A DNA stretch of 64,000 bases. It comes from Yuukianura sp. NJ FZ-2021 (lineage: Eukaryota). The stretch is from positions 1,860,001 to 1,924,000 of the forward strand of contig CM102287.1 of NCBI GenBank assembly GCA_046563655.1. The letters run 5' to 3'. Under the pieces are notes generated by a model. The model was not told the DNA's origin. It was given only the letters and a program-made list of their open reading frames with translations, and made no database searches. Both the position numbers and the translations under genes were made by a program. Positions 2,012-64,000 of the stretch are shown here, piece after piece (within the stretch, counting starts at the first letter, position 1; each line of letters opens with the position of its first letter).

Positions 2012-2437
2012 TTATTTCAATAATCATATATTAAACATTAATAACCTTCAAAATGTAAATAAATCGCACCATCTCAAGTGTAATACAATTAAATTTTACA
2101 TTTAAAGAGTTTTACTACTTAAACGCTACGAAGAATTTTTAAGAAATAAACCTTTTTCTGTTCTATACAGTTGGTAGAATGCAGAAAAATTAAAGCTCAG
2201 CTCTAGCCTTCAACAAGTTCAACTTATTGTTACAAACTTCAGTAAGTTTTCCTAGTTTGTGTATAGTTTGTAAAAAAAACTCAGGTTTAACTCTAGACTA
2301 GAAATTGAAACGATCTTAGCAAAGAACTTCAATTTCTAATAAATCAATACCATAAACACTTTTGTTGTATTTATTAGTTTAATTAGTTTCGTTCTTGTAA
2401 ATTGATCACTTTGTATGAGAATTGATTCATATTTTCA

Positions 2438-4973: not shown

Positions 4974-5176
4974 ATCAAATCGATATGCTGTAATTATGTT
5001 CAAAAAATTTACAAATAACTCAGTCCTTCAATGTATTGTAACGTTTCTCTTGTATTGTATACTTCGTAGCGTTAGATTAGAAATAAAAGATTCAATTCGC
5101 TTTTCCAAGCTTTTTCGACAACGCCATTTTTTTGTAAGTCGTATTAATTGTCAACTACCTCCAGAAGACCAATGCT

Positions 5177-8100: not shown

Positions 8101-9280
8101 CTTGTTGCATAGTAAAGTTGTGCTAAAATAAAATTTCGGATTGTTTTTGGACACAAGTTATTAAGATGTCCTTTATTTGAAGTGAACGATGTTAGTAAAA
8201 CATACAAAAGTATTTCTTGAAAATTCCAACCAATAATTGCAAATAATGGTGAATGTTCAATTTTGATTTGGAAAGTGTTATAATCGAATATTCCCTGAAA
8301 TTCCATAGGCAACTGAGTGATCGTGATTCCTAGTATCAAAGTGAGAACTCCTGGTTGGTATCTGGAGTGAGGGCAAGCTCGACATTTCACCGGCACTTCT
8401 CGTTTGTGCTCAAAGATGAACCCTGACAACATGTGGTTCACTGGGTGATTTTGTCGTTGATGCAGTACGACAAAGTGGACCGGTATTTGATGCATAACAT
8501 AAAGATGGTTATCAACGGTAACAAAGGTAAATTCCATGTTTTAGTGTTTCAGGCTTTGTTGTATAGTTCACCACTTAGTTAAACCTAAATGACTGTTAGA
8601 TTTATGCACTTGTTGCATAGTAAAGTTGTGCTAAAATAGAATTTCGGATTGTTTTTGGACACAAGTTATTAAGATGTCCTTTATTTGAAGTGAACGATGT
8701 TAGTAAAACATACAAAAGTATTTCTTGAAAATTCCAACCAATAATTGCAAATAATGGTGAATGTTCAATTTTTATTTGGAAAGTGTTATAATCGAATATT
8801 CCCTGAAATTCCATAGGCAACTGAGTGATCGTGATTCCTAGTATCAAAGTGAGAACTCCTGGTTGGTATCTGGAGTGAGGGCAAGCTCGACATTTCACCG
8901 GCACTTCTCGTTTGTGCTCAAAGATGAACCCTGACAACATGTGGTTCACTGGATGATTTTGTCGTTGATGCAGTACGACAAAGTGGACCGGTATTTGATG
9001 CATAAGATAAAGATGGTTATCAACGGTAACAAAGGTAAATTCCATGTTTTAGTGTTTCAGGCTTTGTTGTATAGTTCACCACTTAGTTAAACCTAAATGA
9101 CTGTTAGATTTATGCACTTGTTGCATAGTAAAGTTGTGCTAAAATAAAATTTCGGATTGTTTTTGGACACAAGTTATTAAGATGTCCTTTATTTGAAGTG
9201 AACGATGTTAGTAAAACATACAAAAGTATTTCTTGAAAATTCCAACCAATAATTGCAAATAATGGTGAATGTTCAATTTT
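5177..9280 (-). repeat. 508-bp tandem satellite, left array (about 8.1 units), reverse orientation
   Basis: Near-identical units recur every 508-509 bp (ORF starts 5487, 5995, 6504, 7013, 7521, 8029, 8537, 9045) and are the reverse complement of the main array. Confidence 0.98.
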
Positions 9281-11986
9281 CATGCTTTTTCATTTATTTG
9301 TTTATCGAATTTTTTCACAGTCACCTGCCAAAGGCAGGTTGAGAAAAGAAGTAGGATTTAAGTTAGATTATAATATGAATAACTCGTAAAGATCTTTTCC
9401 TGAGGGTAAGGTTCCCAAGATTGAGCAGGAGTTTCCGCGTTGAACAGCTAGGCTTATTCGTTGTAGGAAGAAGGTCGAGGCTCGTTTATCTCCAGATGCT
9501 TCTGACAGCCGATGTCCGATTTGTTTTAGTAGACGAAGACCTTCGGATCCGAATACACCTGATGTCTCGACGGCAATGATGGATACGACGAAGCGAGATT
9601 CTAGGTCACGATAGAGATGATGTTTGTGTGTCTCTGCTAATTCGGCTGCATGACCATAGCGGGAAGACGATGTCGAGAGGTAGGAATTTGCATAAGTGTC
9701 ACGGCAGGTAAAGTCCCAGCAGAGGCAGCGTCCTGAGCTCCAAGGAATGAGAGTAACACCATCTGGCCGTTTGCCATCGGATCTGCTGCAGCCGACAGGT
9801 TCTTTAATTGAAGGAAATCCAGCGGTTTGTAATGCTCTGAAGATTATGTCGTTGACTGAGTTGTGACGAGAGTGTCTTCCGGCGCTACGCTTACAGCTTA
9901 AACCGTGGAGACCGTTACTTGACACCGGAGCACCGCACGAGCAGATATGAGGTTGGCATATATCAGTTCCTAGGCGAAGAGCACAAGAAATCCTAAAAGA
10001 TTCGTCCGAAAGTAGAGTTCCAAGTTGTCCGGAGGGTATTGCGTGTAACCAATCTCCAGAATGTGGTGCAGCGGCAGCCAGTAGTCTTGCTTTGTCGATA
10101 AGGGTTGAAGAGTTCTGAACTAGGGAAGAAGAAATTTGCTTAAAGACTTGAATTTCCCAGAGGTTTTGAGATTTTTTGTCCTGTGGAATAACGAAGCCCA
10201 ATTGAGACCAGTTGAACAAAGCCAAATCCATTGAATTGTCGAAGGGTGACAGGGAAGACGGCAGAAATGTAGAAATTAGCTCCGCACAACTATGGACTGA
10301 TGCCAAAAACGAAAATGTAGCGCAGTCCTTAGCGTGGCGAACTCCTAATCCGCCCAAGTTCACCGGTAGACTTAACTGAGACCAAGCGTGTGAAGACAAA
10401 GTAGAATTGAGAATCGATTCCATCACTGCACGTAGTGCACAGTCGTATTCATCGAGAAGGTCGGTTTCCAGAAACGAAGGAGCACATCTGAGAAAATATA
10501 GGAGTCTTGGGGTGGAAATTGAAGCCCGAAGCAGGTAGAACGCAATGTGGGCAGGTATGTCCGACAACTTAGATGAGAGTGACTTGAAGTTTTCTGTTTT
10601 GCATTTGAGAATCCGACGAGACGATTCTTTGAAAAGAGGCGCTCCTAGAAGTTCAGCTTGATCATAATCAGGGAAGATGATGTCTGGAGAAACAGATTGG
10701 AATGATTGGACGATTGAACGGGACTCAATTGCTTCTGCACTTAGAATGATGACTTCACATTTTCTTAGGTTAAGTTCTAGTCCAAACGAAGAGGCTTCTC
10801 TTTGGATGTATTTGAGATTTTCGAGAACGACATCCGGAGTATCGGCAATCGTTGCGTCATCTAAATACCAGATGTTGACATCAGTGGATAATGAAGAGGC
10901 CAATTGGTGGATGGTTAAAGCGAAAAGAGCAGGACCAAGGGGATCCCCTTGTTGCACTCCTAGTTTCGATTTGATGCAAGCAGAGTCGTAGTAGAGATCT
11001 GAATCGTGCGAATAAGCTTCAGAGACGAATTTGTAGAAGTCTGGAAGTATGGTCTTCACAATGTCCAGCATACGATCTCTTCTAATTAAGTTGAAGGCAT
11101 TGCGAAAGTCGATCTTGAGTAGAACCTTGGCAGAAACATGGTTGGCATTACAGAAGATTCTGGCAGCGTGGGCGACGGCTTCAGCACCATTCTTGATTCC
11201 AACGCCAACTTGGATCGGGCTTAAGGTTGAAGTAATGACATTCAACGAGTGAGATAGGATAAGTTTAGACACGAGGCGTCTCCAGGTAAGGCCGATTGCG
11301 ATAGGACGAATGCCTCCTTTCTTCTTTTGGATTGCTAATAGAGTTGCGCCAAAAAATTCGTCTCACTTCATCGGGAAGAGAACCATTTGTAATGAAGTTA
11401 CACAATCCAGAAACTGATGTTAGAAGAGCTGCTCCTTCATCGCCTGAGGACTTTGAAGTTAGTTCCTTTAGAATCTGTGGACGAAAAGAGTCCAGGCCTC
11501 CGGCGGATCCATTTGGGAATGACGAGATGGCTTTGATGACGTGACAGTTTTCAAAGATAACCTCAGATCTCGGAGGTGCGGCAGGAAACGAGGTTGGTAG
11601 TGGATGATCGGGATGCAATTGGTGGAGAATGTTTAAAGTATCAGAGTCTTTGGAGGCTATGCAATCTTCGGAGACCAGGATTCGAACTGCACCGCGTATA
11701 TCCCCGTCGGCTAGTTTAGATTGAATGACCTTTGAGGAGTTACAGTGATGTGAGGACGGGTGATGGCCACGAGAGAATTGCTTGAATTGATGATGGGAGA
11801 TGCTTGCAGGCGCCTCAGAAGTGATACGGCTAGCGTTTGTCTTCACCCATTTGGTTAGATTTGTGACAGCATCGTCTTTTGACGGAATGGGAAAAACTTG
11901 GTAGGGGAAGTAGAATAACTTTGCCCAAGAATCTGTAGAGTTGTGCTCTATTGCTTGGTCGATGATGGTGGACAGGGCAACAAAGT
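9281..11986 (-). mobile_element. Non-LTR retrotransposon with RT and restriction-like endonuclease (CRE-clade-like), 5'-truncated
   Basis: Non-satellite insert bounded by satellite on both sides. Coding sequence runs directly into satellite at the 5' end. The short 3' UTR has a hairpin (9323-9339) and AATAAA (9293-9298, minus strand). No TSD. Confidence 0.9.
9368..11986 (-). pseudogene. RT-RLE ORF of the CRE-like element; 5'-truncated, one frameshift near 11351-11356
   Basis: Motifs SAGGLDSFRPQ, (frameshift) GATLLAIQKKKGGIRPIAIG, KIDFRNAFN, GVQQGDPLGP, WYLDD, LPVNLGGLGVR, CSCG..HGLSC zinc knuckle, RHSRHN, KRPDG..WDFTC, and K/E residues of the PD-(D/E)xK nuclease. Confidence 0.9.
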
Positions 11987-12050
11987 AACGGTAACAAAGG
12001 TAATTTCCATGTTTTAGTGTTTCAGGCTTTGTTGTATAGATCACCACTTA
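11987..12050 (-). repeat. 64-bp satellite stub still in left-array orientation, ending at the inversion junction
   Basis: aacggtaacaaagg...tcaccactta matches the left-array strand (cf. 9022-9085) with two substitutions; the sequence flips strand immediately afterwards. Confidence 0.92.
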
Positions 12051-53393: not shown

Positions 53394-56300
53394 ATGACTA
53401 ACAAAGTTCGAGAGAGGGGAGTTCATCGTCGTCAACTTACCAATTTGACCAATGAAGTCAACGCTATCCTCGCTACGCCAGTTCCAGATCAGATCATGCT
53501 CCACGTGAATTTGGAAATGATGGACAACGAAATGGAGAAGATTCGTGACCTGGACATTGAAATTTTCAATGCTCTGATGGCTAAATCAGATGTCACTGAC
53601 GAAGCACTGGATGAAGAGAAGAAGAGTGTGGCTGAGTACGAGAAGAAGTATCTCACCATCAAATGCAGCATCCTGAGATCAGCTGCTCGTGACACTCCAA
53701 TTTCTGCCTCCAGTACTCACTCCGAAAGTGCCGATAACCACTCAAAGAAGAAATACAAGTTACCCAAGATATCAATCAAGAAGTTTGATGGGGACTTGAG
53801 GGAGTGGCTTGGATTCTGGGCACAATTCGGCAAAATTCACGAAGATCCAGACATCGACGAGGGAGACAAGTTCCAGTATCTTTACCAGTCTACTGTCGAA
53901 GGATCGAAGGCTCGTGACGTCATTGACAGTTTCCCACAATCAGCAGCAAACTACCAAAAGGCGATCGAGGAACTGAAAACGCGATTTGGCAGGGAGAAAC
54001 TTTTGAAACAAGTCTACGTCCGTGAGTTACTTAAGATGGTTGTTGAAAATTCAATTCAGGGACGTGACAAAGTAACTCCACTCAAAATTTATGATCGACT
54101 TGAAACTCACCTTCGTGCACTTGAGTCTTTAGGTGTTACCAGTGACCAAACCGCTACGTTTCTTTATCCCATGGTGGAATCCAGTCTGCCTGACGACATT
54201 CTCACAGCCTGGCAACGCAGCAGTAACTACGGTCGAGATGGATCCAAAGACTCACCACCACAGAACGAGCTTCAATTTCTCATGACCTTTCTCAGACACG
54301 AGGTCGAAGGCGAAGAACAACGAAGTTTGGCCAAAAGTGGATTCGGAATCACTTCAAGTAATTCGAAAAAGCCATCCAAAAATGAACGCAAGGGTGTTCC
54401 GGCTGAATTGAGCGAAGAGATGCCGACCGCTGCAGGATTATTTTCCGGTCAACAACAGAAGTCAAATCTTTGCCTCTTTTGCGACAAACCTCATGATACT
54501 CAAAATTGTTTCAAGGCTCAGACTCTGACCTTAGAAGAAAGAAGAAGCCGGATTTAAGCCAAGAAAGCATGTGGACAATATTTCAAGGTGGGGCACTTTG
54601 CGAAAAATTGCCGAAGAGCAGTCAAGTGCTTCATTTGCCAAACGAAACATCCCACTGTCATGTGTGCAGATGTCGGCAACAATAAGAAGAAGGAAGAGAA
54701 GACAAATGAATCTACACAGTCAGCATTTTCCAGTCTGGACTGTTCAAACCGTGTCATTCTCCAGACTCTTCTTCTCAATGTTTGGAGGCAAGGGAAACGT
54801 CACAAGGTTCGAGCAATCATTGACAGTGGATCCCAACGCTCCTACATCTTAAAATCAACGGCTGAGAAGCTGAATTTGAAACCAACAGGATCAGTTCAAC
54901 TCCGTCACATTCTTTTTGGCTGCTCAACCGAAAGTCGAACACACGCCAGTTACGAAGTCAACCTGGAGGGGACACAGAATCAATTCAAAAAAGCCATCAG
55001 CGTTCTGGACCATGACCAAATCTGCGGAAATATTCCACGTTTGTCAGCTGGTGCATGGATTCAAGAACTGAAGGACAAAAACATTTGGATTGGTGATCTA
55101 GGAAGCGGAACCCCAGGGATAGAGTTGTTACTCGGCGCTGACGTTTATGGTTCTTTGCTTACAGGCCGAGTTGAGCAGTTGAGCAATGGAATTTCAGCAA
55201 TCGAAACCAAGTTTGGGTGGACATTAGTAGGAGCTCTCAATTCACAGTCAACCGTGGGTATGACTGTCACCTCTCTACTCGTATCCAACTTCGAAGTTTC
55301 AAAATTATGGGAACTTGACGTCCTCGGCATTCAAGGCCCGGCAGTGGCTCAGTCCAAGGAGGAGAAGGAGGAATTGGCCTTGACCCAGTTCAAATCTACT
55401 GTTTCTCGCTCCGGAGATGGACGTTACGCAGTCGCACTACCGTGGATCGGAGGCGTTCAAACAATTCCTGACAATCGTTTCGTGGCAGAAAAGAGACTCT
55501 ACAACACGACTGCCAAGTTGAGGTCAAAGGGTATGTATAATTTGTATGACCAAGTTTTTCAATCCTGGCTACAGGAAGGAGTCATTGAAGTAGTTCCGGA
55601 TGCTGAAATCAAAAACAATGCATACTACCTTCCACATCGTGCAGTCATTAAGCCTGAGAGCCTCACCACACCGATTCGTCCAGTATTCGACGCTTCATGT
55701 CGTAGCGGTCGTTCACCATCACTCAACGATTGTTTGGAGAAAGGTCCAAACCTACTGGAACTTCTACCAACCATTCTGATGCGATTCCGTCTCAAGAAAA
55801 TTGGAGTAACAGCGGACATCAGAAAGGCCTTTCTCATGATTGAAGTTCAGAAGAGTGATCGAGACGTTCTGCGATTTTTATGGTGGGAAAGTGACAACAG
55901 TGAGCGACAAGTGACATTTCGACACAAGAGAGTGGTGTTCGGAGTAAATTCGAGCCCATTTCTACTCGCTGCTGTGATCCAGTACCATATTTCCCAAATT
56001 CAAGATCATCGGAAACAGTCAGCACTTCATTTACTCCGTGGTCTTTACGTAGACAATTGTGTCACTTCCGTGGACTCCATGGAAGAATTTCAAAAATTTA
56101 AATCTGAATCCACTGAAATTTTAGGTGAAGCTAAGATGGAGCTTAGGCAGTGGGCGTGTACTGCTGTGGAGGGTTCCAGAGTCGGCTCGTCCACTGGCGA
56201 TGAGTGCGGATTGGAACCCGGCAGTGGTCACTCCTACAAGTTAACTGCGACTCCAGTACTTGGCATGAAGTGGAATCTAATCTCAGACTCTTTATTTTCT

Positions 56301-57926
56301 GATTTTCAGGAGAGTGATCCACCAGAGAAAATTACAAAACGGGTCATTCTCTCCAGTGTACAGAAAATTTTCGATCCCATTGGATACTTGTGCCCAGTTC
56401 TAGTTCTTCCAAAAGTGATTCTTCAGGAAACTTGGACGTGCAAAGTTGGATGGGACCAAGAGCTTCCAGAAACGTTGTGCTCAAGATTTATGACATGGTG
56501 GGAAGATCTACGAGCCGTCAACGAGATTGAAATTCCAAGAAATGTGACGGGGGGAATCTCAAACCAGTCAACTTGGCAACTACACTGTTTCTGCGATGCT
56601 TCCAAACTGGCCTTCGCGGCAGTTGTCTTCCTCAGATGTGAAAACGAACGGGAAGTCAGTGTCAATTTACTCCAAGCAAGATCCAGGGCTGCACCAATCA
56701 AATCAATTTCAATTCCTCGCCTCGAACTCATGGCATGTCTCATCGGGGCAAGGCTGACGAAGTCGGTGACAACCGCCTTGGATTTGTCTAACCTAACTAC
56801 GTTCTGGAGCGACTCCTCTACTGCCTTGGCATGGATCCAGGGAGACAACAGTTGGGGAACGTTTGTTGGGAACCGGGTGAGGGACATCTTAAAAATTACC
56901 AATTCAGGGGATTGGCGTTTCGTTCCAGGCACCTTAAACCCAGCAGATTTGCCTTCAAGGGGATGCTCGGCAACCGAACTACAAAAATTCAAATGGTGGG
57001 AAGGACCCGAATGGCTAAAAGAGAAGAAGGAGCACTGGCCGAATTCAAGTTTCACTCCAGATCAGGATTTGGTGAATGTGGAACTCAAAAAGTGCAGCGT
57101 CACATCGGCTGTTGCTACAGAAATTGTCATTCCGTGGTTCCTCAGAAGATTCTCATCACTTAAGAAAAACATCAACGTCATAGGATTCATCCTTCGTTTC
57201 ATTCAAAATTGTACTAGTCCAAAGGACAGAAGAATCGATGGCCCTTTGACGATTCCAGAATTGGAGAAAGCGGAACTGAAAATTGTGAAACTAGTCCAGT
57301 CAGAAGCATTTCCGGAGTCAGGAGACATAATCAAAGGAATTCACACCATTCGTGATGCTGACGGTCTCCTCAGACTCAAAACAAGACTTCTGGAGCGTGA
57401 CGACACAATTGGTTTCCGACTACCACTAATTTTACCCAACTCTCATTTATTTACAGATCAGCTGATTAGAGAAGTTCATTTGGAAAACAGTCACGGAGGA
57501 ACTCAGTTTCTCATTTCAAGACTCCGTGAGAAATTCTGGATCTTCCAGATGAGACGGGCAGTCAGCAAGATCGTTTCAAGATGTGTGAAGTGTCGTCGCT
57601 TTCAATCAAAACCATACGCCGACACTGGACTACCAACATTGCCTGGAGCACGGGTGAACACTACCAAAGTGTTTGAAGTGACGGGAGTGGACTTAGCAGG
57701 TCCTATGTACCTCAAGGGTGGTGACAAGGTTTGGATCCTACTTGCCACTTGTGCAGTCTACCGTGCTGTTCATCTGGAGCTACTAACGTCACTCAGCACA
57801 GAATGCTTCATCTTGGGCTTCCAGAGATTCATCAACAGAAGAGGACGTGTCAAAACAGTCTACTCCGACAATGGGACGAACTTCCGAGGAGCAGACAACC
57901 TCTTTGCAAAGCTCGACTGGGTCCGA
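53394..57926 (+). pseudogene. BEL/Pao gag-pol (Gag DUF1759-like, three zinc knuckles, protease, RT, RNase H, partial integrase) with in-frame stop at 54555-54557
   Basis: KLPKISIKKFDGD..W..FW gag; CLFCDKPHDTQNC, CGQY..GHFAKNC and CFICQTKHPTVMC knuckles; IIDSGSQRSYI protease; YYLPHRAV..RPVFDAS, ADIRKAF, YVDN RT; FCDAS, IPRLEL, WSDS, NPADLPSRG RNase H; H..H..CVKC, VDLAGP, SDNGTNF integrase. The two listed ORFs share one frame across the TAA. Confidence 0.93.
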
Positions 57927-58301
57927 TGTAACGCCCTCCGACGCTAGAACAACTGGAAAACAATCCTCACCAGACTCTCTCTGAGCCCACAGGCTCCCAG
58001 ACCCAAATAACCTCCAGAAATCACCACTGCAAAACCATCGACGAATAATAAATATAGGTATATATTTATTGAGTCGATGAATAATATACACTGAAACAAC
58101 TGCTAAATACTGATCATAACTACCGATCGCTCCAACTCACTCAATAGCCAATCCAAGACTAACTCTAATACACTAAATCTCCTCTCTCTCTAAAACCACA
58201 CCGCATCTCAAAACTCCCGCGACTCTCTCGCCGCATCTCTACCAAATCTCAATAAGACATAATCCTATGGCTACTAAACCTACGCAGCGACGCCCAACAC
58301 A
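57927..58301 (-). repeat. 3' LTR of the Gypsy element (375 bp)
   Basis: Minus strand reads TGTGTTGGGCG...GGGCGTTACA. It is preceded by the PPT, contains AATAAA at 58065-58070, and ends exactly where BEL integrase homology stops. Confidence 0.85.
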
Positions 58302-58311
58302 TTCCCCTCCA
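58302..58311 (-). promoter_or_regulatory. Polypurine tract (TGGAGGGGAA)
   Basis: Purine run directly abutting the TG of the 3' LTR. Confidence 0.8.
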
Positions 58312-58342
58312 GATGATGGGTGTCGTCCCTGGCCGACATCCA

Positions 58343-60262
58343 TCAGCGACGAACTCGGGCGGCGGCTGCTCCATCCTCGTCTCTCTGCTCTCTCCTCTCC
58401 CGTCGACGAACTTGGCGCTCAGCGTAGTCCCCACGACGAGCAATGTTGATCCTCGCATTGTCTTTCTTCCTTCTCCACTGGTACTTGGCGATGGCCTCAG
58501 CACGAGTAAATCCATGTCGACGATACCAACACTGAACCCACGAATGACGAGACGAACCGCAATGTCCACAACGGTCTGGATTTGGTACATGTCTGGGCTG
58601 TGGAATGTCAACTTCAACGACTACCCTCCCAGGCACTGCTACAACCTCCGGTACTTCCTCCAACTGGTCCAAATCCTCCTGTGGTACGGAAACCTCGAGC
58701 ACATCATCCGCAGCATCTTCATCGTCAGTCACTTCCACTATATCACACTCCACATCAGCCATGTCACTATCTGCCTCTGCATCATCCACTGGTTTGTCCT
58801 CTTCCATAGGCTCGTCCGACACATCTGACAAAATCGAAGTATCTGAGATGACAGATAAGTTGTCGTCGGCAATTACTGGCACACTCTCACTAATATTTAC
58901 ACTTGAATTTACAGTAGGCACAACGGTAGTTTGACCCTGGCTCTGCACTGTAGGAATGACCATGGGTACATCCCAGTCATCATAGTCCACTGGCACTAAA
59001 TTAGCACTTGAACTGACGGAGGCCGATGAATCGACTCCCATGGGACTTACACTTACAGTCTGACTTTCAGCTGTAATTTTTAGCAACTTATACAAATGAT
59101 CACTGCTAAGATCCACTTTCCCAAGGATCTTAGTTAATTCTGACGAATCAACTGGCAACTTTTTAGCTATGTTAACACATAACTCGTCGATAAGCACATC
59201 TCCTGGTTGACGATCACAAGAACGAGCTACTTGTGATCTCCACTCAAAAATTTTGAAAAGTACAGCCGAATTTAGACCCTCCTGAGCAAACCGCTGAACT
59301 AATGCAGATGAAGTAGGATGTTGCTTGATTATGTACATTTTTTTGCACATCACATTGCACTTAGCCACTGCACTCTGCCACTTCTCCCTAAACTGTACAA
59401 ATGGGTACTTAACTCTAAGCACTCTCCAGACTCGCAAAAGAAGATGAGTATCGCTCCTAGCGTACTCCAGCATATCCGAATGCATTCTTGTAAGGGGCCG
59501 AATACGAAAATCACTCAACTGACAATCCTTCGGAACTGACACTTCCGAGCCAAGATAAAAATGAACTAATTTGTCAAATCCAATTGGTTGACCACCACAA
59601 AACTCTTTATGTACCACTTGAACGTCAATCACTCCAACCATGAAAACTTGAAATTGCATCTGTAGAGCAAGTAGATCATTGTCACTTCCATGAAAAACTT
59701 TCAGATACTCACTGTCATGGAAAATTTCTTTGAGTTGATCACACTGATGCACCAACTCGAAAGTATCGATGAGATAATCACCTCCACAAACTGATATTTG
59801 TAACAGTGAGATATATCGGTCAATATATCCCTTGTCGAAACTCATTTCTATATCTACAGCCATCACATCACATTCACGAAGATGCTTCATCATTCGTCTA
59901 AATCCACGTTCAGTGTCCACTATAACAAAATTAATGTCCTTACGACGATCCTCGTACCACTTTCCCTTAGCTTCAGTATGTTTAGTCTTCATAAACTCAT
60001 CTAACTTCCAGGAATCAACATCAGATGCAAATGGATGAACACTATAAGGAAACACTGACCATGAATTACGAAGTCTAGCATGACGAAGATAAACTGGGTC
60101 AGATTCCTGTGGTCGCTCTTTAGCTTTACCGTACTTCCGTAGACACAAATTCCGTTTCTGTAGAAAGCTTAGGACCCTCTCTTTAGCACTACTCACTTCA
60201 AGAATCGATCCAGGCATGTTGAGAATGACGGAAGCCAAACACTTATGACTCCCAAATGACAC
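58343..60262 (-). CDS. Gypsy ORF3: Rrp6/EXOSC10 (RNase D family)-like DEDDy 3'-5' exonuclease + HRDC + acidic tract + CCHC zinc knuckle + Arg-rich tail (first ATG at 60217)
   Basis: HPF; ExoI AVDIEM; LLQIS..DYLIDT; ExoII KVFHGSDNDL..LQ; ExoIII QLSDFRIRPL..MLEYARSDTHLLL; HRDC IFEWRSQVARSCD..PGDVL..IAKKLP; knuckle CGHCGSSRHSWVQC. Confidence 0.9.
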   Translation of the reverse strand: MSFGSHKCLASVILNMPGSILEVSSAKERVLSFLQKRNLCLRKYGKAKERPQESDPVYLRHARLRNSWSVFPYSVHPFASDVDSWKLDEFMKTKHTEAKGKWYEDRRKDINFVIVDTERGFRRMMKHLRECDVMAVDIEMSFDKGYIDRYISLLQISVCGGDYLIDTFELVHQCDQLKEIFHDSEYLKVFHGSDNDLLALQMQFQVFMVGVIDVQVVHKEFCGGQPIGFDKLVHFYLGSEVSVPKDCQLSDFRIRPLTRMHSDMLEYARSDTHLLLRVWRVLRVKYPFVQFREKWQSAVAKCNVMCKKMYIIKQHPTSSALVQRFAQEGLNSAVLFKIFEWRSQVARSCDRQPGDVLIDELCVNIAKKLPVDSSELTKILGKVDLSSDHLYKLLKITAESQTVSVSPMGVDSSASVSSSANLVPVDYDDWDVPMVIPTVQSQGQTTVVPTVNSSVNISESVPVIADDNLSVISDTSILSDVSDEPMEEDKPVDDAEADSDMADVECDIVEVTDDEDAADDVLEVSVPQEDLDQLEEVPEVVAVPGRVVVEVDIPQPRHVPNPDRCGHCGSSRHSWVQCWYRRHGFTRAEAIAKYQWRRKKDNARINIARRGDYAERQVRRRERREQRDEDGAAAARVRR

Positions 60263-60294
60263 TTCACTGTAAAGTTGACACTGATGATTGAAGT

Positions 60295-63200
60295 TTAATT
60301 AGTACTCGAATTGTAAGATCTGTAGCCTGCTAAAGTCCTGTAATTAACACGTTGTATGTTTCTTGTTGTTCTCCTCACCGGTAGAGTGTCTGGGTCTGGC
60401 GATTCCTCTGACACGACAGACACCAACGGTACTTTGAACTGCGACTTGCGAACTGTATATGGCTTAAGCTCAGACGCGTGACGCTTACCAAAATAAGTTC
60501 TTTCCGGTAACCTAACCAATTCGAATGTCACTGGTGTCAAAATTTCACTAATTTGAAATGGACCAACGAACCGATGTGACAATTTTTGCATAAATCCTTT
60601 TGCTTTATCAGACTGAACATGACTCTTAGCTAACACAAAATCACCAACTTGAAACGTAGGTTCAATGTGACGCTGGTCGTAGTACTTTTTACTTGCCTCA
60701 TGAGCTTTTTGAATGTTTTGACGCACAAAACTAACAATGTCACTTAACTCTTTAGGAACGCTTGCTAAATCCACTGTTTCTGAATTAATTACACTTTGAT
60801 CACTCTGTAAACTTCTGTCAATAGGTAATGGTATTTCACGTCCTAAATTCAATAATGAAGGTGTCACTTTAGTTGAACTATGCACTGTAGTTCTGAGAGC
60901 TAAAGCGAACTTTTGAAGGTGTATATCCCAACTTCTATGGGTAGCACCTACATAGGCCTGTAACATAGGTTTTAAATCACGATTAACTCTTTCAACTGAG
61001 TTGGCCTGAGCATGATATGGACTAATGCACACATGATTGATTTTCCATTCTTTGGTCATTTTAGCCATTGTTTTAGAGATGAACTGACTTCCATTGTCTG
61101 ACACTATAGTTTTCACTGTTCCATATCTGCAGAATATCTCATCCACAAGCACTTTCACTACTTTATTTGCCGTTGCTTTTCGTATTGGAAAAAGTTCTAC
61201 CCACTTGGAGAGGTCATCTTCAACAACGAACAAATATTCATTGCCATTTGAACTACGGGGTAAAGGACCTAAGAAGTCCACATAAATCTTCTCAAAAACT
61301 TGGGTAGCTGGCTTAGCTCCCTGAAGTAACCCGAATGGTTTATGATTAACACTTTTCACTACTTGACAAACTGGGCATGAACGCACATATTCACTGATGT
61401 CCTTGTTCATATTATGCCAGAAAAATCTCTTCTTAATTTTCACTTTTGTTGCTTTGATCCCTAGATGAGCCGCTTCGGGAACATCATGTAGATTTTGCAA
61501 AATTTTAGGGATTAAGACCCTTGGAACCACTGTCACTAGTAACTCACTTTGTTGAGTTTGAGATACGCTGCGAGCTGCGCCATTAGAGGCTAGGACAACG
61601 TTCTCTAGAGAAATGTCAGAAGCTTGGGGCCCCGTTTCTGCATCTCTCTCTTCTTCGGGATATCCGCAGACTCCCACAGTGGTGCGAAAGCCAAAGTCTT
61701 TGACTCTCTTTTTCAGTAGCCCATTCTTCAGGACGTACTGCTGCTCACTTTTTCCACTTTTCACTGCACGAATAATCTTCTTCAAATCTTCATCTTTTTC
61801 CTGTTCTTCTTTCATCTGCTTGAATGTTGGAGTGTCGAATGACAGTAATGCCGTGGCCATCGGCGAATACATGTACTCTGGGGAATCGTCGTCAAAATCC
61901 AAGTCATCTTCTTGCACTGGAACTGGAGCCCGTGAAAGCGCGTCCGCCTCCACGTTATCCTTCCCTGCTCGATGTTTAATTGGCACTCCCCACGACTTAA
62001 TCTCCACATCCCACAACTGTAACTTCTGTTTTCTTTCTTTCATCTTCTGTAGAAACGACAGGGCTTTGTTGTCTGTGATAATTGTAAATTCTTGACCTTC
62101 TATGTACTCCCTGAGTTTTCGATAAGCCCAAATGATCGCAAACAGCTCCTTTTCGTAAATATGATACCGAATTTCTGAATTTCGTAGAGTCTTGCTTATG
62201 AACATCACTGGTCTCTCAACACCATTAAACACTTGCGTCAAGGCTGCTCCCAACCCTAACATAGACGCATCACACTTTAGCAAAATTGGATGATCATAGT
62301 CCACAGCATGAAGCATGACATCGTTGCACATTGCTTCTTTAATTGCTTCAAATGACTTTTGTTGTTCTGGTCCCCACTGCCACGGTTGAGATTTTCTTAA
62401 AAGTCGATACATAGGTTCTGCCTTTTCTGCAAAATGTTCTATGAAACTGGCGTACCACTGAGCCATTCCATGAAATCGTTGAACTTCTTTCACATTTTTA
62501 GGCGTAGGAAAATCCACAATCGCTTGCACTTTTTTGGGACACTTTTTTAAACCAAGATCTGACAACTTATGACCTAAAACATCAATTTCACGTTGACACA
62601 ACTGAAGTTTTTTGCGACTAAGGGTTAGGCCTGCCAACTTAAGCCTAGTTAACACTTTAGATAGATGCACCATATGCTCGTCCACTGTTTTACTGAAAAT
62701 GATGATGTCATCCATGTATCCCTTCGCAAAGTTAGAAAAACCACGAATCACTCTTCTGATTAACTGTTGGCACGTTTTAGGACTATTTTTGAGCCCAAAC
62801 GGCATCACTAAAAACTCATAATGTCCGTCTTGTGTCACAAATGCTGACTTTTCAACACTATCCGGATGCAACATCACTTGCCAGTAGCCTCTGTCCAAAT
62901 CAAGCACTGAATACCAATGATTAGAAGGAATCGAATGTAAAATGGAATGTGCACTTTCCATTGGAGTTTCATTCGTCTTCGTTTGCTGATTTAAACAAGT
63001 ATAATCCACACAGAGTCTTTGGCTGCCATCTTTCTTCGGTACTAACACAACTGGTGCTGCATACGGTGATCTTGAATCCCGAATTATCCCTTCCTTGAGT
63101 AACTGTTCAATTTGATCATTTATCACCTTCTGAATCGCTGGTGACTTTTTGTAAGGATTCCTCGCAGGCGGGTATCCTTCATCTTCAATAATATGATGAG

Positions 63201-63789
63201 TCCAATCCGTTCTTCCTAATTTTCCATCGTCCCTAACCACAGTCGGGAACTGTTTTAACACTTTTTGCACTTTTTCTTGAATTTCACTATCACTTTCACT
63301 GTTATTGCTTTTTGGCAAAGCAACTGCAAAGTACGCTGAACCAGTCGTACCATGGGCGAAAGCCAAAGTAAATTTATGACTCTCATTCGCACCAAACCAA
63401 AACTGCTTTGACTTTAATCGAAGCACAATGTCGTTCTGAGCAATGTAGTCAGAACCCAAAACACACGGAACAGGAAGAGATTCTGCCACGAAGAACCTAA
63501 ATCTAACTGTTCTCTCCCCGATTTTTATGTACACAAAGGTGAAACCACTTAACTGTAGCTCCTGATTGTTCATTGTCGTTGTAGACTTATTTTCTAAAGG
63601 CACTACAACTGAATTTAACTTTTTACACAAACTTCTTTCAATTAGTGACTGTGAACATCCCGTATCGAAAATAGCCAAGAACTTTGACTCGTACGCAGTC
63701 ACAGTCACAAATGGTATAGTTTCGTCCGAGATTTGAATTAATGTTGGGTGAATGATGGACGACTCGTCATTCCCCTCCTTTAGTTTAAC
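60295..63789 (-). CDS. pol: Gypsy Pol (protease, RT, RNase H, integrase); frame open up to the gag overlap
   Basis: AIFDTGCS; SPYAAPVVLVPKKDGSQRLCVDY, LDLDRGYWQV, MPFGLKNSP, YMDDII; CDAS, EKEL, ITDN, ADALSR; H..H..CPVC, VDFLGP, SDNGSQF, ERVNR, GPF. No stops. Confidence 0.96.
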   Translation of the reverse strand, partial: VKLKEGNDESSIIHPTLIQISDETIPFVTVTAYESKFLAIFDTGCSQSLIERSLCKKLNSVVVPLENKSTTTMNNQELQLSGFTFVYIKIGERTVRFRFFVAESLPVPCVLGSDYIAQNDIVLRLKSKQFWFGANESHKFTLAFAHGTTGSAYFAVALPKSNNSESDSEIQEKVQKVLKQFPTVVRDDGKLGRTDWTHHIIEDEGYPPARNPYKKSPAIQKVINDQIEQLLKEGIIRDSRSPYAAPVVLVPKKDGSQRLCVDYTCLNQQTKTNETPMESAHSILHSIPSNHWYSVLDLDRGYWQVMLHPDSVEKSAFVTQDGHYEFLVMPFGLKNSPKTCQQLIRRVIRGFSNFAKGYMDDIIIFSKTVDEHMVHLSKVLTRLKLAGLTLSRKKLQLCQREIDVLGHKLSDLGLKKCPKKVQAIVDFPTPKNVKEVQRFHGMAQWYASFIEHFAEKAEPMYRLLRKSQPWQWGPEQQKSFEAIKEAMCNDVMLHAVDYDHPILLKCDASMLGLGAALTQVFNGVERPVMFISKTLRNSEIRYHIYEKELFAIIWAYRKLREYIEGQEFTIITDNKALSFLQKMKERKQKLQLWDVEIKSWGVPIKHRAGKDNVEADALSRAPVPVQEDDLDFDDDSPEYMYSPMATALLSFDTPTFKQMKEEQEKDEDLKKIIRAVKSGKSEQQYVLKNGLLKKRVKDFGFRTTVGVCGYPEEERDAETGPQASDISLENVVLASNGAARSVSQTQQSELLVTVVPRVLIPKILQNLHDVPEAAHLGIKATKVKIKKRFFWHNMNKDISEYVRSCPVCQVVKSVNHKPFGLLQGAKPATQVFEKIYVDFLGPLPRSSNGNEYLFVVEDDLSKWVELFPIRKATANKVVKVLVDEIFCRYGTVKTIVSDNGSQFISKTMAKMTKEWKINHVCISPYHAQANSVERVNRDLKPMLQAYVGATHRSWDIHLQKFALALRTTVHSSTKVTPSLLNLGREIPLPIDRSLQSDQSVINSETVDLASVPKELSDIVSFVRQNIQKAHEASKKYYDQRHIEPTFQVGDFVLAKSHVQSDKAKGFMQKLSHRFVGPFQISEILTPVTFELVRLPERTYFGKRHASELKPYTVRKSQFKVPLVSVVSEESPDPDTLPVRRTTRNIQRVNYRTLAGYRSYNSSTN

Positions 63790-64000
63790 TTTTCTTTCAT
63801 ATTTGTAGAAGTAGAAGGCCCTTGAGCCTGGTTCACATCTTCACTTTGAGCCACAGCTTTCTTAGCCGCCTCACTAAATGATACTAGAGCCGCACCCATG
63901 TTCGTAGGACACTGAAACTGTCGATGACCGTAACCACTACATTTGTAGCACTGTACGTCTTCTGGATTCACTGGCTGCGAATTACCATTCCCACGACCAT
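63780..64000 (-). CDS. gag: Gypsy Gag C-terminus (5'-partial) with CCHC zinc knuckle
   Basis: CYKCSGYGHRQFQC; the frame is open to the window edge; stop at 63782-63780. Confidence 0.88.
   Translation of the reverse strand, partial: GRGNGNSQPVNPEDVQCYKCSGYGHRQFQCPTNMGAALVSFSEAAKKAVAQSEDVNQAQGPSTSTNMKEKLN
63783..63789 (-). promoter_or_regulatory. Putative -1 ribosomal frameshift heptamer G TTA AAC at the gag/pol overlap
   Basis: Immediately precedes the gag TAA; pol is in the -1 frame and has no ATG upstream of the protease motif. Confidence 0.65.

What the first reader, a model, noticed from the sequence alone, without database searches (positions are those of the whole stretch)
58343..60262. 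Gypsy retrotransposon carrying an Rrp6/EXOSC10-like exoribonuclease (DEDDy + HRDC) in the env position
Seen: an uninterrupted 639-codon ORF starts 32 nt after the pol stop and ends about 31 nt before the PPT/3' LTR, so it lies inside the element. All DEDDy catalytic residues (DIE, D in GSDND, Y and D in YARSD) and a following HRDC domain are present, with no signal peptide or TM helix typical of Env. Known: this motif set (HP[YF], QIS..DY.IDT, KVFHG, QL.D[WF]R.RPL, YAR.DTH, HRDC) is that of the nuclear exosome nuclease Rrp6. DEDDy ORF3s have been reported in bdelloid rotifer LTR elements, so a nuclease ORF3 has precedent; I do not recall one with this Rrp6+HRDC+knuckle architecture. Inference: an intronless, heavily diverged but intact copy suggests old retro-capture kept by selection. 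It might trim or degrade host small RNAs, act as a decoy for exosome surveillance, or process element RNA or primer.
Basis: partly seen in the sequence, partly recalled or inferred. Interest (0 to 1): 0.9.

Follow-up and report, generated by a model that had tools for sequence, protein, structure and literature searches.

The report
Gypsy retrotransposon encoding an Rrp6-like nuclease
A Ty3/gypsy retrotransposon carries, where a retrovirus would have env, an intact copy of the catalytic core of the nuclear-exosome RNA nuclease Rrp6 fused to a nucleocapsid-type zinc knuckle, and the same gene sits behind related gypsy pol genes in other organisms, so it is a conserved accessory gene of a transposon lineage.

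Summary
A 639-codon ORF lies on the minus strand at 58343-60262. It starts 32 nt after the stop of a PR-RT-RNaseH-IN Ty3/gypsy pol and ends 32 nt before a polypurine tract and a 375-bp TG...CA LTR.

It encodes an Rrp6-type linker, a DEDDy exonuclease, an HRDC domain, a disordered acidic spacer, a CX2CX4HX4C knuckle and a basic tail. It has no PMC2NT domain and no exosome-docking C-terminus.

It is not a one-off. About 46 cluster representatives share the architecture and form a clade beside canonical Rrp6. Three metagenome contigs and one springtail gene model place the gene directly behind a homologous gypsy integrase. The DEDDy residues are conserved in at least 90% of 39 members. Listed variants among copies are mostly synonymous (14 of 23).

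The identity is firm. The function is inferred: an exosome-independent 3'-5' exoribonuclease tethered to the element's RNA, probably made from a spliced subgenomic mRNA.

DEDDy ORF3s are already published for bdelloid rotifer LTR elements. My searches found no description of this Rrp6 + HRDC + knuckle form or of its wide spread. I rate it a new variant of a known kind.

The 5' LTR and gag lie outside the window, and no genome was held.

The parts
60295..63708 (-). Ty3/gypsy pol ORF (1137 aa from GTG): protease, RT, RNase H, integrase (H2C2 + rve core), Tf2-type SH3. It ends ...VNYRTLAGYRSYNSSTN*.
   Evidence: The C-terminal NYRTLAGY motif is shared with the pol ends of L009 and L016 (L062 has NYRTLQGY).
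60263..60294 (-). 32-nt spacer between the pol stop and the ORF3 frame. It holds a pyrimidine-rich stretch ending TTTACAG (AG at 60268-60267), a possible 3' splice acceptor.
   Evidence: A similar Y-rich ...YAG lies 1-49 nt upstream of the ORF3 ATG in L009, L062 and L016. That it is a splice site is inference only.
58343..60262 (-). ORF3, 639 codons. The likely start is the ATG at 60217 (624 aa). The stop is at 58345-58343.
   Evidence: Relatives begin about 20-30 residues before the RPQ motif, which fits the ATG start.
59948..60190 (-). Residues 25-105: helical N-terminal region with the conserved motifs FGKAxxRPQ(D/E), N66, HP (76-77) and W85. It matches the linker that precedes the exonuclease domain in Rrp6 catalytic cores.
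   Evidence: P51, N66, P77 and W85 are conserved in at least 90% of 39 sequences. pLDDT is 91-98 for residues 31-90. The PDB alignment to yeast Rrp6 starts at query residue 74.
59414..59926 (-). DEDDy 3'-5' exonuclease domain, residues 113-283 (D137, E139, D196, Y267, D271).
   Evidence: Pfam PF01612, E 8.2e-26. Motif positions. All five residues are conserved in at least 90% of 39 family members.
59120..59266 (-). HRDC domain. The Pfam match covers residues 333-381; the model's helices run 318-403.
   Evidence: Pfam PF00570, E 3.1e-06 and 27.5 bits against a cut-off of 23.8. Model pLDDT is above 90. Rrp6 cores align over 332-361 columns.
58580..59026 (-). Residues 413-561: acidic spacer predicted to be disordered (38 D+E against 3 K+R; pI 4.1).
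   Evidence: pLDDT is below 50 over 413-514 and 516-561. Composition.
58529..58570 (-). CX2CX4HX4C zinc knuckle of the nucleocapsid type, residues 565-578 (CGHCGSSRHSWVQC).
   Evidence: The same motif near the C-terminus is in 17 of the 46 non-canonical representatives by regex, and in the L009 C-terminal piece.
58346..58528 (-). Residues 579-639: basic helical tail. Residues 562-639 together have 23 K+R and pI 11.3.
   Evidence: Helices 587-609 and 613-638 have pLDDT 72-86.
58302..58310 (-). Polypurine tract GGAGGGGAA, directly 5' of the LTR.
   Evidence: The junction in L062 is similar: GGAGGGAGTAA|TGTGTAACGG, overlapping the ORF3 stop.
57927..58301 (-). Putative 3' LTR, 375 bp, running TGTGTTGG...GTTACA, with an internal AATAAA.
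   Evidence: The outer boundary is supported by the X2 contig that fits 57400-57926 and then departs, and by a loose end at 57926 in X1. No second LTR lies in the window.
53394..57926 (+). BEL/Pao element: gag with DUF1759, and pol with DUF1758/protease, RT, Peptidase_A17 and Integrase_H2C2. Its integrase is cut by the gypsy insertion. This is the insertion target, not part of the gypsy element.
   Evidence: The pol ORF reads on into the gypsy LTR and stops at 57947.

Best explanation
What it is. ORF3 is a true accessory gene of a Ty3/gypsy LTR-retrotransposon lineage. It derives from the catalytic core of the nuclear-exosome nuclease Rrp6 (linker + DEDDy exonuclease + HRDC).

What was lost and gained. 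The two modules that tie Rrp6 to the exosome are gone: PMC2NT, and the C-terminal core-binding region. In their place are an acidic spacer, a nucleocapsid-type CCHC knuckle and a basic tail.

Shown here: the architecture; the intact and family-wide conserved DEDDy site; the position between pol and the PPT/3' LTR; the same pol-to-nuclease order in three environmental contigs and one springtail gene model with homologous pol; many diverged copies in the source organism; and a second organism that holds both genes.

Inferred.
1. The protein is an active, exosome-independent 3'-5' exoribonuclease.
2. Its knuckle and basic tail bind the element's RNA or particle.
3. It is translated from a spliced subgenomic mRNA that uses the YAG just upstream of ORF3, as env is in retroviruses.
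4. Its job is 3'-end trimming of RNA in the element's replication complex: the primer tRNA, genomic RNA 3' ends, or RNase H leftovers.

My odds. Identity as an element-borne Rrp6-derived nuclease: about 0.9. Catalytically active: about 0.75. A replication-complex RNA-trimming role rather than the rival roles: about 0.35-0.4.
For: Domains and nearest relatives.
- Pfam finds the exonuclease at 8.2e-26 and HRDC at 3.1e-06, with no PMC2NT hit.
- All 14 distinct PDB sequences with E <= 0.001 are Rrp6/EXOSC10 (13) or RNase D (1). The alignments stop near query residue 375-404.
- The AF2 model has pLDDT above 90 over residues 25-410. Foldseek ranks 1-13 are Rrp6 cores at 4.8e-20 to 4.9e-16, and RNase D scores 6.6e-14.

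A family.
- The exhaustive search found 3598 hits with E <= 0.001. The 150 best were listed.
- In a FastTree of those 150, three earlier hits and the query (154 rows), a 100* branch splits 107 canonical rows from 47: the query, 45 non-canonical representatives and P0003, the bacterial-type RNase D-like sequence used as outgroup.
- In Pfam scans of 75 of the hits, the short-N-terminus group has its exonuclease domain at residues about 75-125 (44-113 bits) and no PMC2NT. Canonical hits have it at about 170-290 (134-178 bits), and 24 carry PMC2NT.
- In an IQ-TREE of 71 rows, the family (37 rows) sits on one side of a branch (SH-aLRT 93), Rrp6 (25 rows) at 99* and bacterial RNase D (9 rows) at 81.
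- D137, E139, D196, Y267 and D271 are each conserved in at least 90% of 39 sequences.

Linkage to pol. Nine of the 120 metagenome loci were family-type. Five of them had more than 300 nt upstream, and three of those five have a gypsy integrase directly upstream on the same strand:
- L062: 48% identity to window pol residues 740-1129, E 7e-112.
- L016: 49% identity, E 5e-63.
- L009: 35% identity, E 7e-17.
Pfam confirms rve and/or SH3_Tf2-1 in them. Residues 3-145 of P0012 (Orchesella dallaii) match window pol 956-1097 at 35% identity, E 4e-23, and the exonuclease follows in the same gene model.

Inside the element. The PPT and a TGTGT... LTR start follow the ORF3 stop in the window and overlap it in L062.

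Copies and constraint.
- At 80% likeness or more, 377, 365, 166 and 82 contig pieces of runs X1-X4 lay on 57400-64000, covering all 30 bins in each run.
- Organism B (X4, a separate study) has a 1279-nt contig on 58989-60267 with 82 differences and no gaps, plus pol contigs.
- Of the 23 listed ORF3 variants, 14 are synonymous against an expected 21.6% (pN/pS about 0.18, binomial p 5e-05). For pol the count is 8 of 10.

Expression. A Y-rich ...YAG lies 1-49 nt upstream of the ORF3 ATG in 4 of 4 elements inspected.
Against: - No 5' LTR, gag, PBS or target-site duplication could be inspected, so 'internal to a complete element' rests on the 3' side and on synteny.
- Two of the five family loci with upstream sequence (L056, L003) show no pol within about 1.2 kb. 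They show low-complexity S/P- or K/E-rich ORFs with no Pfam hit. L056 has no knuckle. Linkage to gypsy is therefore shown only for part of the family.
- The variant sample is small and chosen by the tool: 23 listed, with 1518 variants over the whole stretch not shown. Within residues 1-410 it is 3 synonymous to 5 non-synonymous.
- X1-X3 are one sample and probably the window's source, so they are not independent.
- Some relatives have lost catalytic residues (P0016; P0005 has G in place of E).
- No data bear on RNA against DNA as substrate. The fold also resembles DNA-acting DEDDy enzymes at weaker scores.
- The splice-acceptor reading rests on short motifs that are common in AT-rich spacers, and L062 has an out-of-frame ATG before the ORF3 start.
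Confidence: 0.55

Rival explanations
1. Counter-defence. The nuclease acts on host RNA rather than on the element's own replication intermediates. It might trim or destroy small silencing RNAs or their precursors. It might also remove the oligo-A or oligo-U tails that mark the element's transcripts for decay. Either way it would work as a transposon-encoded suppressor of RNA surveillance, built from the host's own surveillance nuclease.
For: - The protein keeps the Rrp6 active site and HRDC but has lost every module that would place it under exosome control.
- The fold also resembles the small-RNA-pathway DEDDy proteins Nibbler (E 5.5e-09) and Exd1 (E 1.2e-06).
- PMC5408684 itself raises a link to silencing through mut-7, Maelstrom and EXD1 (passages read).
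- The gene is a separate ORF in the window, L062 and L016. It could therefore be made in amounts uncoupled from Gag-Pol.
Against: - There is no expression or small-RNA evidence.
- The nucleocapsid-like knuckle and basic tail suggest the protein rides on the element's own RNA.
- In the springtail gene model the nuclease is joined to the pol C-terminus. If that is real, it would put the nuclease inside particles.
- The match to Nibbler and Exd1 is far weaker than the match to Rrp6.
Confidence: 0.25
2. DNA-end function. The enzyme acts on single-stranded DNA 3' ends made during reverse transcription. It might trim non-templated additions or mispaired termini, which would be a crude proofreading or end-polishing aid to a reverse transcriptase that has none.
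For: - The DEDDy fold is shared with DNA-acting exonucleases. Foldseek lists Pol I exonuclease domains and dinucleases at 1e-06 to 1e-07.
- PMC5408684 and PMC6431247 note that DEDDy enzymes may process ssDNA as well as RNA (passages read).
Against: The closest relatives by sequence, fold and tree are all RNA enzymes: Rrp6, then RNase D. HRDC is kept as in those RNA-processing enzymes. The DNA-acting matches are weaker by ten or more orders of magnitude in E-value.
Confidence: 0.1
3. Passenger or inactive binder. The ORF is carried along with little or no benefit. Alternatively it works only as an RNA-binding or decoy protein, with catalysis irrelevant.
For: - PMC5408684 reports no clear departure from neutrality and no clear copy-number benefit for bdelloid extra ORFs (passage read).
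- A few family members have lost catalytic residues (P0016, P0005).
- Within the catalytic part only 3 of 8 listed variants are synonymous.
Against: - DEDDy residues are conserved in at least 90% of 39 sequences that share only 20-30% identity with the query.
- The ORF is intact over 639 codons, and a 6%-diverged copy in a second organism has no gaps over 1279 nt.
- Overall there is a synonymous excess, p 5e-05.
- A decoy for the exosome would need the docking modules, and these are missing.
Confidence: 0.07
4. Chance juxtaposition or assembly artefact. A host Rrp6 paralogue or retrogene merely lies beside a truncated gypsy pol.
For: Only one copy is in the window, and the 5' half of the element is missing.
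Against: - The same gene order recurs with homologous pol in L062, L016, L009 and P0012.
- The PPT and LTR come directly after the stop.
- Independent contigs from two studies cover both genes.
Confidence: 0.02

Closest known systems
Rrp6 / EXOSC10, the nuclear RNA-exosome DEDDy exoribonuclease
   Same: It shares the linker with the (K/R)PQ and HP motifs, the DEDDy exonuclease domain and HRDC. It is the best match by sequence (3.6e-23) and by fold (4.8e-20). All five catalytic residues are present.
   Different: There is no PMC2NT domain, and nothing aligns with the Rrp6 C-terminal region. Instead there is an acidic spacer, a CCHC knuckle and a basic tail. The family forms a separate clade beside all sampled Rrp6, not inside it. 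It is encoded in a retrotransposon and is intronless.
DEDDy-exonuclease ORF3 of bdelloid rotifer LTR retrotransposons (Juno, Vesta), and the same ORF type in Athena/Terminon elements (Rodriguez, Kenefick and Arkhipova 2017, PMC5408684)
   Same: An extra ORF downstream of pol in LTR retrotransposons encodes an RNase D-like DEDDy exonuclease without transmembrane or coiled-coil features, and its function is unknown (passages read).
   Different: That paper reports the motif changed to DEED and needed HHpred to find the homology. The word HRDC does not occur in its main text (0 occurrences). Here the site is canonical DEDD-Y, HRDC is present, similarity to Rrp6 is plain at Pfam/phmmer level, and a CX2CX4HX4C knuckle is attached.
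Bacterial RNase D
   Same: It has a DEDDy exonuclease plus HRDC, and it trims 3' ends of structured RNA (function recalled). The NCBIfam rnd model matches at 3.7e-27.
   Different: The score of 95.5 bits is far below the equivalog cut-off of 298.95. RNase D has two HRDC domains (seen in L064). The tree places the family with eukaryotic Rrp6.
env as ORF3 of errantiviruses and retroviruses
   Same: The position is the same, between pol and the PPT/3' LTR. A possible splice acceptor lies just upstream.
   Different: There is no signal peptide and no transmembrane segment. It is a soluble nuclease, not a glycoprotein.
Nibbler / Mut-7 / EXD1, the DEDDy proteins of small-RNA pathways
   Same: The exonuclease fold is shared: Nibbler at E 5.5e-09 and Exd1 at E 1.2e-06.
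   Different: The matches are much weaker than those to Rrp6, and no PDB sequence hit for them reached E <= 0.001.
Kinetoplastid RNase D-like exonucleases with a CCHC finger
   Same: They combine a DEDDy exonuclease with a CCHC zinc finger. One Atlas cluster has DNA_pol_A_exo1 in 100% and zf-CCHC in 61% of members, with Euglenozoa the commonest phylum, at score 0.82. T. brucei RNase D scores E 3.0e-09 in Foldseek.
   Different: The Atlas score is below its 0.9 lead level. These are cellular genes, not transposon genes. That the Atlas cluster and the PDB entry are the same protein is my recollection, not a result.

Membership tests
Rrp6/EXOSC10 | DEDDy 3'-5' exonuclease domain with all catalytic residues | tested here: met
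   PF01612 at 8.2e-26. D137, E139, D196, Y267 and D271 are present.
Rrp6/EXOSC10 | HRDC domain after the exonuclease domain | tested here: met
   PF00570 scores 27.5 bits against a cut-off of 23.8. The model is confident there and aligns with Rrp6 cores over about 340 columns.
Rrp6/EXOSC10 | N-terminal PMC2NT domain (the Rrp47/C1D-binding module) | tested here: not met
   There is no PF08066 hit at E <= 0.01. Only about 100 residues precede the exonuclease domain. Of the 75 relatives scanned, 24 canonical ones carry PMC2NT and none of the short-N-terminus group does.
Rrp6/EXOSC10 | C-terminal region that binds the exosome core | tested here: not met
   Alignments to full-length chains (7mqa_NV, 885 aa; 6ft6_KK, 733 aa) end at query residue 374-375. 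The C-terminus is an acidic disordered stretch, a CCHC knuckle and a basic tail.
Rrp6/EXOSC10 | Placement inside the Rrp6 clade | tested here: not met
   The 25 Rrp6 rows form their own side of a branch (99*) and the 37 family rows another (93). FastTree on 154 rows shows the same split at 100*.
Ty3/gypsy LTR retrotransposon (Metaviridae) | pol domain order PR-RT-RNaseH-IN | tested here: met
   Protease at residues 8-90, RVT_1 at 223-382, RT_RNaseH at 470-570, Integrase_H2C2 at 728-786, rve at 803-899 and SH3_Tf2-1 at 1022-1084.
Ty3/gypsy LTR retrotransposon (Metaviridae) | Two LTRs with TG...CA ends, a PPT, a PBS and a target-site duplication | tested here: inconclusive
   The PPT and one 375-bp TG...CA repeat candidate are present, with the outer edge supported. 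The 5' LTR, PBS and duplication lie beyond the window end, and no genome is held.
Ty3/gypsy LTR retrotransposon (Metaviridae) | gag upstream of pol | not testable with these tools
   The window ends 292 nt upstream of the pol ORF start.
LTR retrotransposons with a DEDDy ORF3 (bdelloid Juno/Vesta type) | An extra ORF between pol and the 3' LTR that encodes a DEDDy exonuclease | tested here: met
   The definition is taken from PMC5408684 (passages read).
LTR retrotransposons with a DEDDy ORF3 (bdelloid Juno/Vesta type) | Sequence kinship with the bdelloid ORF3s (reported with DEDD changed to DEED) | not testable with these tools
The motif here is DEDD, not DEED.

The most novel reading that the evidence does not exclude
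A widespread Ty3/gypsy lineage has turned the host's own nuclear RNA-surveillance nuclease against the host. It cut Rrp6 free of the exosome and bolted it to a nucleocapsid-like RNA-binding tail. It uses the result as a transposon-encoded suppressor of RNA surveillance or small-RNA silencing, for example by stripping decay-marking tails from its own transcripts or by over-trimming piRNA/siRNA 3' ends. This would be the retrotransposon counterpart of the silencing suppressors and ExoN-type nucleases of RNA viruses.
Probability: 0.2. Interest if true: 0.85.

Novelty: new variant of a known kind. Interest (0 to 1): 0.62.

Why it matters
LTR retrotransposons rarely fix extra enzymes. Each such case (dUTPase, chromodomain, env, GDSL lipase, demethylase) has shown something about how an element copes with its host.

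This accessory enzyme is a recognisable, probably active derivative of Rrp6, a central host RNA-surveillance nuclease. It has been stripped of its regulatory docking modules and given a nucleocapsid-type knuckle. It recurs behind homologous pol genes in at least this genome, springtails and unidentified eukaryotes in environmental assemblies.

The published 'DEDDy ORF3' observation from bdelloid rotifers thus becomes a broader and better-defined family. Its hypotheses are directly testable: substrate preference, particle association, and effects on small RNAs or transcript tails.

It also has a practical side. [quoted passage not shown]

Tried and rejected
Context searches that gave nothing.
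- No whole genome is held for the window. Copy counts, the 5' LTR, the target-site duplication and the PBS could not be examined.
- Self-comparison found no second copy or LTR in the window.
- Rfam found nothing in the window.
- TRF reported nothing, because the 508-bp satellite period exceeds its 500 limit.

Protein searches.
- The word-indexed search was unproductive three times. The single protein gave 3 hits, all canonical-like or RNase D-like. The family alignment with 'longer' lengths gave none at 1e-10, so no fused pol-nuclease proteins were found this way, which is weak evidence. The family alignment with 'near' lengths gave 2 hits.
- The ESM Atlas gave only leads below 0.9, mostly canonical Rrp6 clusters.

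Locus searches.
- With A3, 597 stretches in viral contigs matched a pattern and none was a relative.
Most were bacterial RNase D genes. Only 9 were family-type, so this is a small, non-random sample.

Selection. dN/dS between metagenome loci was not attempted, because the pairs share only 65-66% nucleotide identity.

Expression. No RNA holder was listed for the stretch, so expression remains unexamined.

Earlier findings. Look-ups by place, sequence and words returned nothing relevant.

Literature.
- Seven full-text searches found no description of a gypsy ORF3 with Rrp6 + HRDC + knuckle.
- The eLife 2026 paper on env-carrying gypsy elements has 0 occurrences of exonuclease, Rrp6, RNase D, HRDC or ORF3.
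- Repbase and GyDB could not be consulted.
They may hold the bdelloid ORF3 sequences that would settle kinship.

Ideas considered and dropped.
- The D194A variant does not hit the active site: D196, not D194, aligns with the catalytic Asp of EXOSC10.
- The single in-frame stop between pol and ORF3 in L009 could signal read-through. However, the other elements have the two ORFs in different frames or far apart.


Full report
**The observation**

A minus-strand ORF of 639 codons occupies 58343-60262. It runs 624 codons from the first ATG at 60217.

Directly upstream on the same strand lies a 1137-codon ORF (60295-63708). Pfam finds in it, in order, an aspartyl protease, RVT_1, RT_RNaseH, Integrase_H2C2, rve and a Tf2-type SH3 domain, which is a Ty3/gypsy pol. 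The pol stop (TAA, 60297-60295) and the ORF are 32 nt apart and in different frames.

Downstream of the ORF stop come 32 nt, a polypurine run GGAGGGGAA (58310-58302), and then a sequence that begins TGTGTTGG at 58301 and ends GTTACA at 57927.

At 57926/57927 the gypsy sequence abuts the integrase of a plus-strand BEL/Pao element. That element has a gag with DUF1759 and a pol with Peptidase_A17 and Integrase_H2C2 but no rve core. Its reading frame runs on into the repeat and stops at 57947. A 2149-nt contig of run X2 fits 57400-57926 and then departs, and X1 has a loose end at 57926. The BEL/Pao element therefore exists without this insertion, and the edge of the repeat is real.

The window holds no second LTR and no other copy. 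It ends 292 nt upstream of the pol ORF, and no genome was available. The 5' LTR, gag, PBS and target-site duplication could not be checked.

**What ORF3 encodes**

Pfam finds DNA_pol_A_exo1 at residues 113-283 (E 8.2e-26) and HRDC at 333-381 (E 3.1e-06), and no PMC2NT.

Against PDB sequences, the 14 distinct hits with E <= 0.001 are 13 Rrp6/EXOSC10 sequences (best 3.6e-23) and E. coli RNase D (1.2e-08). The alignments cover query residues 74/126 to about 375-404 and stop there.

The catalytic residues are D137 and E139 (DIE), D196 (GSDND; D196 aligns with the catalytic Asp of EXOSC10), and Y267 and D271 (YARSD).

An AlphaFold2 model built on a 39-sequence family alignment is confident (pLDDT above 90) over residues 25-410. 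It is disordered over 413-561 and moderately confident (72-86) over 562-639.

Foldseek ranks Rrp6 catalytic cores first: T. brucei 4.8e-20, human 1.5e-18, yeast 4.7e-18. RNase D follows at 6.6e-14. Egalitarian, T. brucei RNase D, Nibbler (5.5e-09), dinucleases and Exd1 (1.2e-06) come after.

The C-terminal third is an acidic spacer (38 D+E, 3 K+R), then a CX2CX4HX4C knuckle at 565-578, then a basic helical tail (pI 11.3). No 19-residue window reaches membrane-helix hydrophobicity.

The protein is thus the Rrp6 catalytic core without the two parts that connect Rrp6 to the exosome and its cofactors. In their place is a nucleocapsid-like nucleic-acid-binding tail.

**It is a family, not a one-off**

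An exhaustive HMMER search of 1.84 billion cluster representatives gave 3598 hits with E <= 0.001, and the best 150 were listed.

The top hits (P0004 at 1.1e-70, 37% identity) align from their own N-terminus. They share the query's layout: an N-terminal FGKAxxRPQ(D/E) motif, an HP motif, the exonuclease, a weak HRDC, an acidic spacer, and often a CCHC knuckle with a basic tail.

In Pfam scans of 75 hits, this group has the exonuclease domain at residues about 75-125 (44-113 bits) and no PMC2NT. Canonical Rrp6 hits have it at about 170-290 (134-178 bits), and 24 of them carry PMC2NT.

I built two trees.
- FastTree used 154 rows: the 150 listed hits, three earlier hits and the query. A 100* branch separates 107 canonical rows from 47. 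The 47 are the query, 45 non-canonical representatives and the bacterial-type sequence P0003 used as outgroup.
- IQ-TREE (PMSF mixture, quick search) used 71 chosen rows: 37 family, 25 canonical and 9 bacterial RNase D. I left out the other canonical rows and the shortest or longest-branched family rows. Each group sits on one side of a branch: family SH-aLRT 93, Rrp6 99*, RNase D 81. Rooted on RNase D, the family is sister to all sampled Rrp6 rather than nested in it.

This fits an old origin, or fast evolution after capture. The tree cannot tell which.

In the 39-sequence alignment, D137, E139, D196, Y267 and D271 are each conserved in at least 90% of rows, although rows share only 20-30% identity with the query. 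A few rows (P0016; P0005 at the Glu) have lost them.

**Linkage to gypsy pol elsewhere**

By profile score, ORF size and context, most are bacterial RNase D genes.

Nine loci are family-type: L003, L009, L011, L016, L056, L062, L065, L104 and L114. Five of them have more than 300 nt of upstream sequence.

Three of those five (L062, L016, L009) have a gypsy integrase end directly upstream on the same strand. Identity to the window's pol is 48%, 49% and 35% (E 7e-112, 5e-63, 7e-17), and Pfam finds rve and/or SH3_Tf2-1. The pol proteins even end alike: NYRTLAGY in the window, L009 and L016, and NYRTLQGY in L062.

In L062 the ORF3 stop overlaps a junction GGAGGGAGTAA|TGTGTAACGG, which resembles the window's GGAGGGGAA|TGTGTTGG. 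L009's C-terminal piece, in another frame, carries the acidic stretch, the knuckle CHVCYDYGHKGMDC and a basic tail.

A gene model from the springtail Orchesella dallaii (P0012) begins with 143 residues that match window pol 956-1097 (35% identity, E 4e-23). It then continues into the nuclease.

The named sources of other members are Orchesella dallaii (P0019, P0032, P0037, P0038) and Allacma fusca (P0022). The rest come from unnamed environmental assemblies, where some are labelled 'ribonuclease D'.

Against a universal link stand L056 and L003. They have low-complexity ORFs with no Pfam hit upstream and no pol within about 1.2 kb, and L056 has no knuckle. What carries that branch is unknown.

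**Copies and constraint in the source organism**

Contigs of four public runs were laid on 57400-64000 at 80% likeness or more. The counts were 377, 365, 166 and 82 pieces, spread over identity classes from above 99% to below 90%, and all 30 bins were covered in every run. Up to 8 different contigs overlap one position (58742 in X2). The element is therefore present in several diverged copies, and these include ORF3.

X1-X3 are one sample and may be the window's source, so they are not independent.

X4 comes from another study and is labelled as another organism. It has a 1279-nt contig on 58989-60267 with 82 differences and no gaps, plus pol contigs with 29-34 differences in 827-1133 nt.

Of the 33 variants listed inside the two ORFs, 23 fall in ORF3. 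Fourteen of those are synonymous and 9 are not. For pol the split is 8 to 2. With 21.6% synonymous sites, this gives pN/pS of about 0.18 for ORF3 (binomial p 5e-05) and 0.07 for pol.

Three caveats apply. The tool shows only the best-supported variants (1518 more were not shown). Within residues 1-410 the split is 3 to 5. One variant, D194A, lies next to the catalytic D196 but is not it.

**How it probably works**

What is shown is the architecture, the conserved active site, the position within the element and the evidence of constraint. The rest is inference.

*Activity.* Because the DEDDy site and HRDC are kept across a very diverged family, I take the protein to be an active 3'-5' exonuclease. 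Because its nearest relatives by every measure are RNA enzymes, RNA is the likelier substrate.

*Independence from the exosome.* Because PMC2NT and the exosome-binding C-terminus are gone, it should act independently of the exosome. That also argues against a simple decoy role.

*Targeting.* The knuckle and basic tail resemble retroelement nucleocapsid modules. They suggest that the enzyme is brought to the element's own RNA or particle. The springtail model, in which the nuclease is joined to the pol C-terminus, points the same way if it is a true reading.

*Expression.* In 4 of 4 elements inspected, a pyrimidine-rich stretch ending TTACAG, TTTCAG or TTCGCAG lies 1-49 nt upstream of the ORF3 ATG. 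This suggests expression from a spliced subgenomic mRNA, as for env. Such motifs are common in AT-rich spacers, and L062 has an out-of-frame ATG first.

*Role.* My preferred role is trimming of RNA 3' ends in the replication complex: primer tRNA, genomic RNA ends, or RNase H leftovers. The main rival is counter-defence against RNA surveillance or small-RNA silencing. Minor rivals are trimming of DNA ends and a passenger or binder role.

**Comparison with what is known**

Rodriguez, Kenefick and Arkhipova (PMC5408684; passages read) described DEDDy-type ORF3s in the bdelloid LTR elements Juno and Vesta and in Athena/Terminon elements. They noted a DEED variant of the motif, intact invariant residues, no transmembrane or coiled-coil features and an unknown function. 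The word HRDC does not occur in their main text.

Two reviews repeat this point (PMC5718144 and PMC6431247; passages read). [quoted passage not shown]

Seven full-text searches found no description of a gypsy lineage with Rrp6 core + HRDC + CCHC, and none of its presence in springtails. Whether the bdelloid ORFs belong to this family is open.

**Verdict**

This is a conserved accessory nuclease gene of a Ty3/gypsy lineage, and a new variant of a known kind. Its biochemical function is well defined but untested, and its biological role is unknown.

Noticed in passing
window 5176-9045 (minus-oriented units) and 12017-52807 (plus-oriented units): A satellite with a 508-bp period fills about 45 kb in two arrays of opposite orientation. 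GC is about 0.358 and GC skew flips from +0.16 to -0.16. Each unit holds a 147-codon ORF with no Pfam hit, probably not a gene. TRF missed the arrays because the period exceeds 500.
   Followed up: partly
window 9368-12047, minus strand: A non-LTR-type reverse-transcriptase ORF (RVT_1, E 8.4e-15), plus an upstream 260-codon ORF, sits exactly between the two oppositely oriented satellite arrays.
   Followed up: partly
window 190-3328: A PIF1-like helicase fragment (190-1107, E 1.1e-11) is followed by a 283-codon ORF without a Pfam hit. On the other strand is an RPA-type OB-fold ORF (2438-2959, REPA_OB_2, E 2e-06). Together they look like a Helitron-type remnant with a captured RPA fragment, which is my reading and was not tested.
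   Followed up: partly
window 53394-57947, plus strand: A BEL/Pao retrotransposon has an intact-looking gag (DUF1759) and a pol that the gypsy insertion cuts within the integrase. Other copies without the insertion exist in the runs.
   Followed up: partly
L056 1-4038 and L003 1-4078: Members of a knuckle-less branch of the nuclease family are preceded by long low-complexity ORFs, not by pol. These are S/P-rich and then K/E-rich, and L056 has a repeated GSARKEK unit. They have no Pfam or NCBIfam hit. The genetic element that carries this branch is unknown.
   Followed up: partly
L009 1968-1970: In this environmental copy, pol and the nuclease ORF are in the same frame and separated by a single TAA. 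This could mean read-through, a recent mutation or an assembly error. The ORF3 C-terminus is also in a shifted frame.
   Followed up: partly
P0155 (Orchesella dallaii, 1386 aa): A long gene model in the same 90% cluster as P0019 has the nuclease at residues 97-262 and about 1000 further residues with no Pfam hit at E <= 0.01.
   Followed up: no
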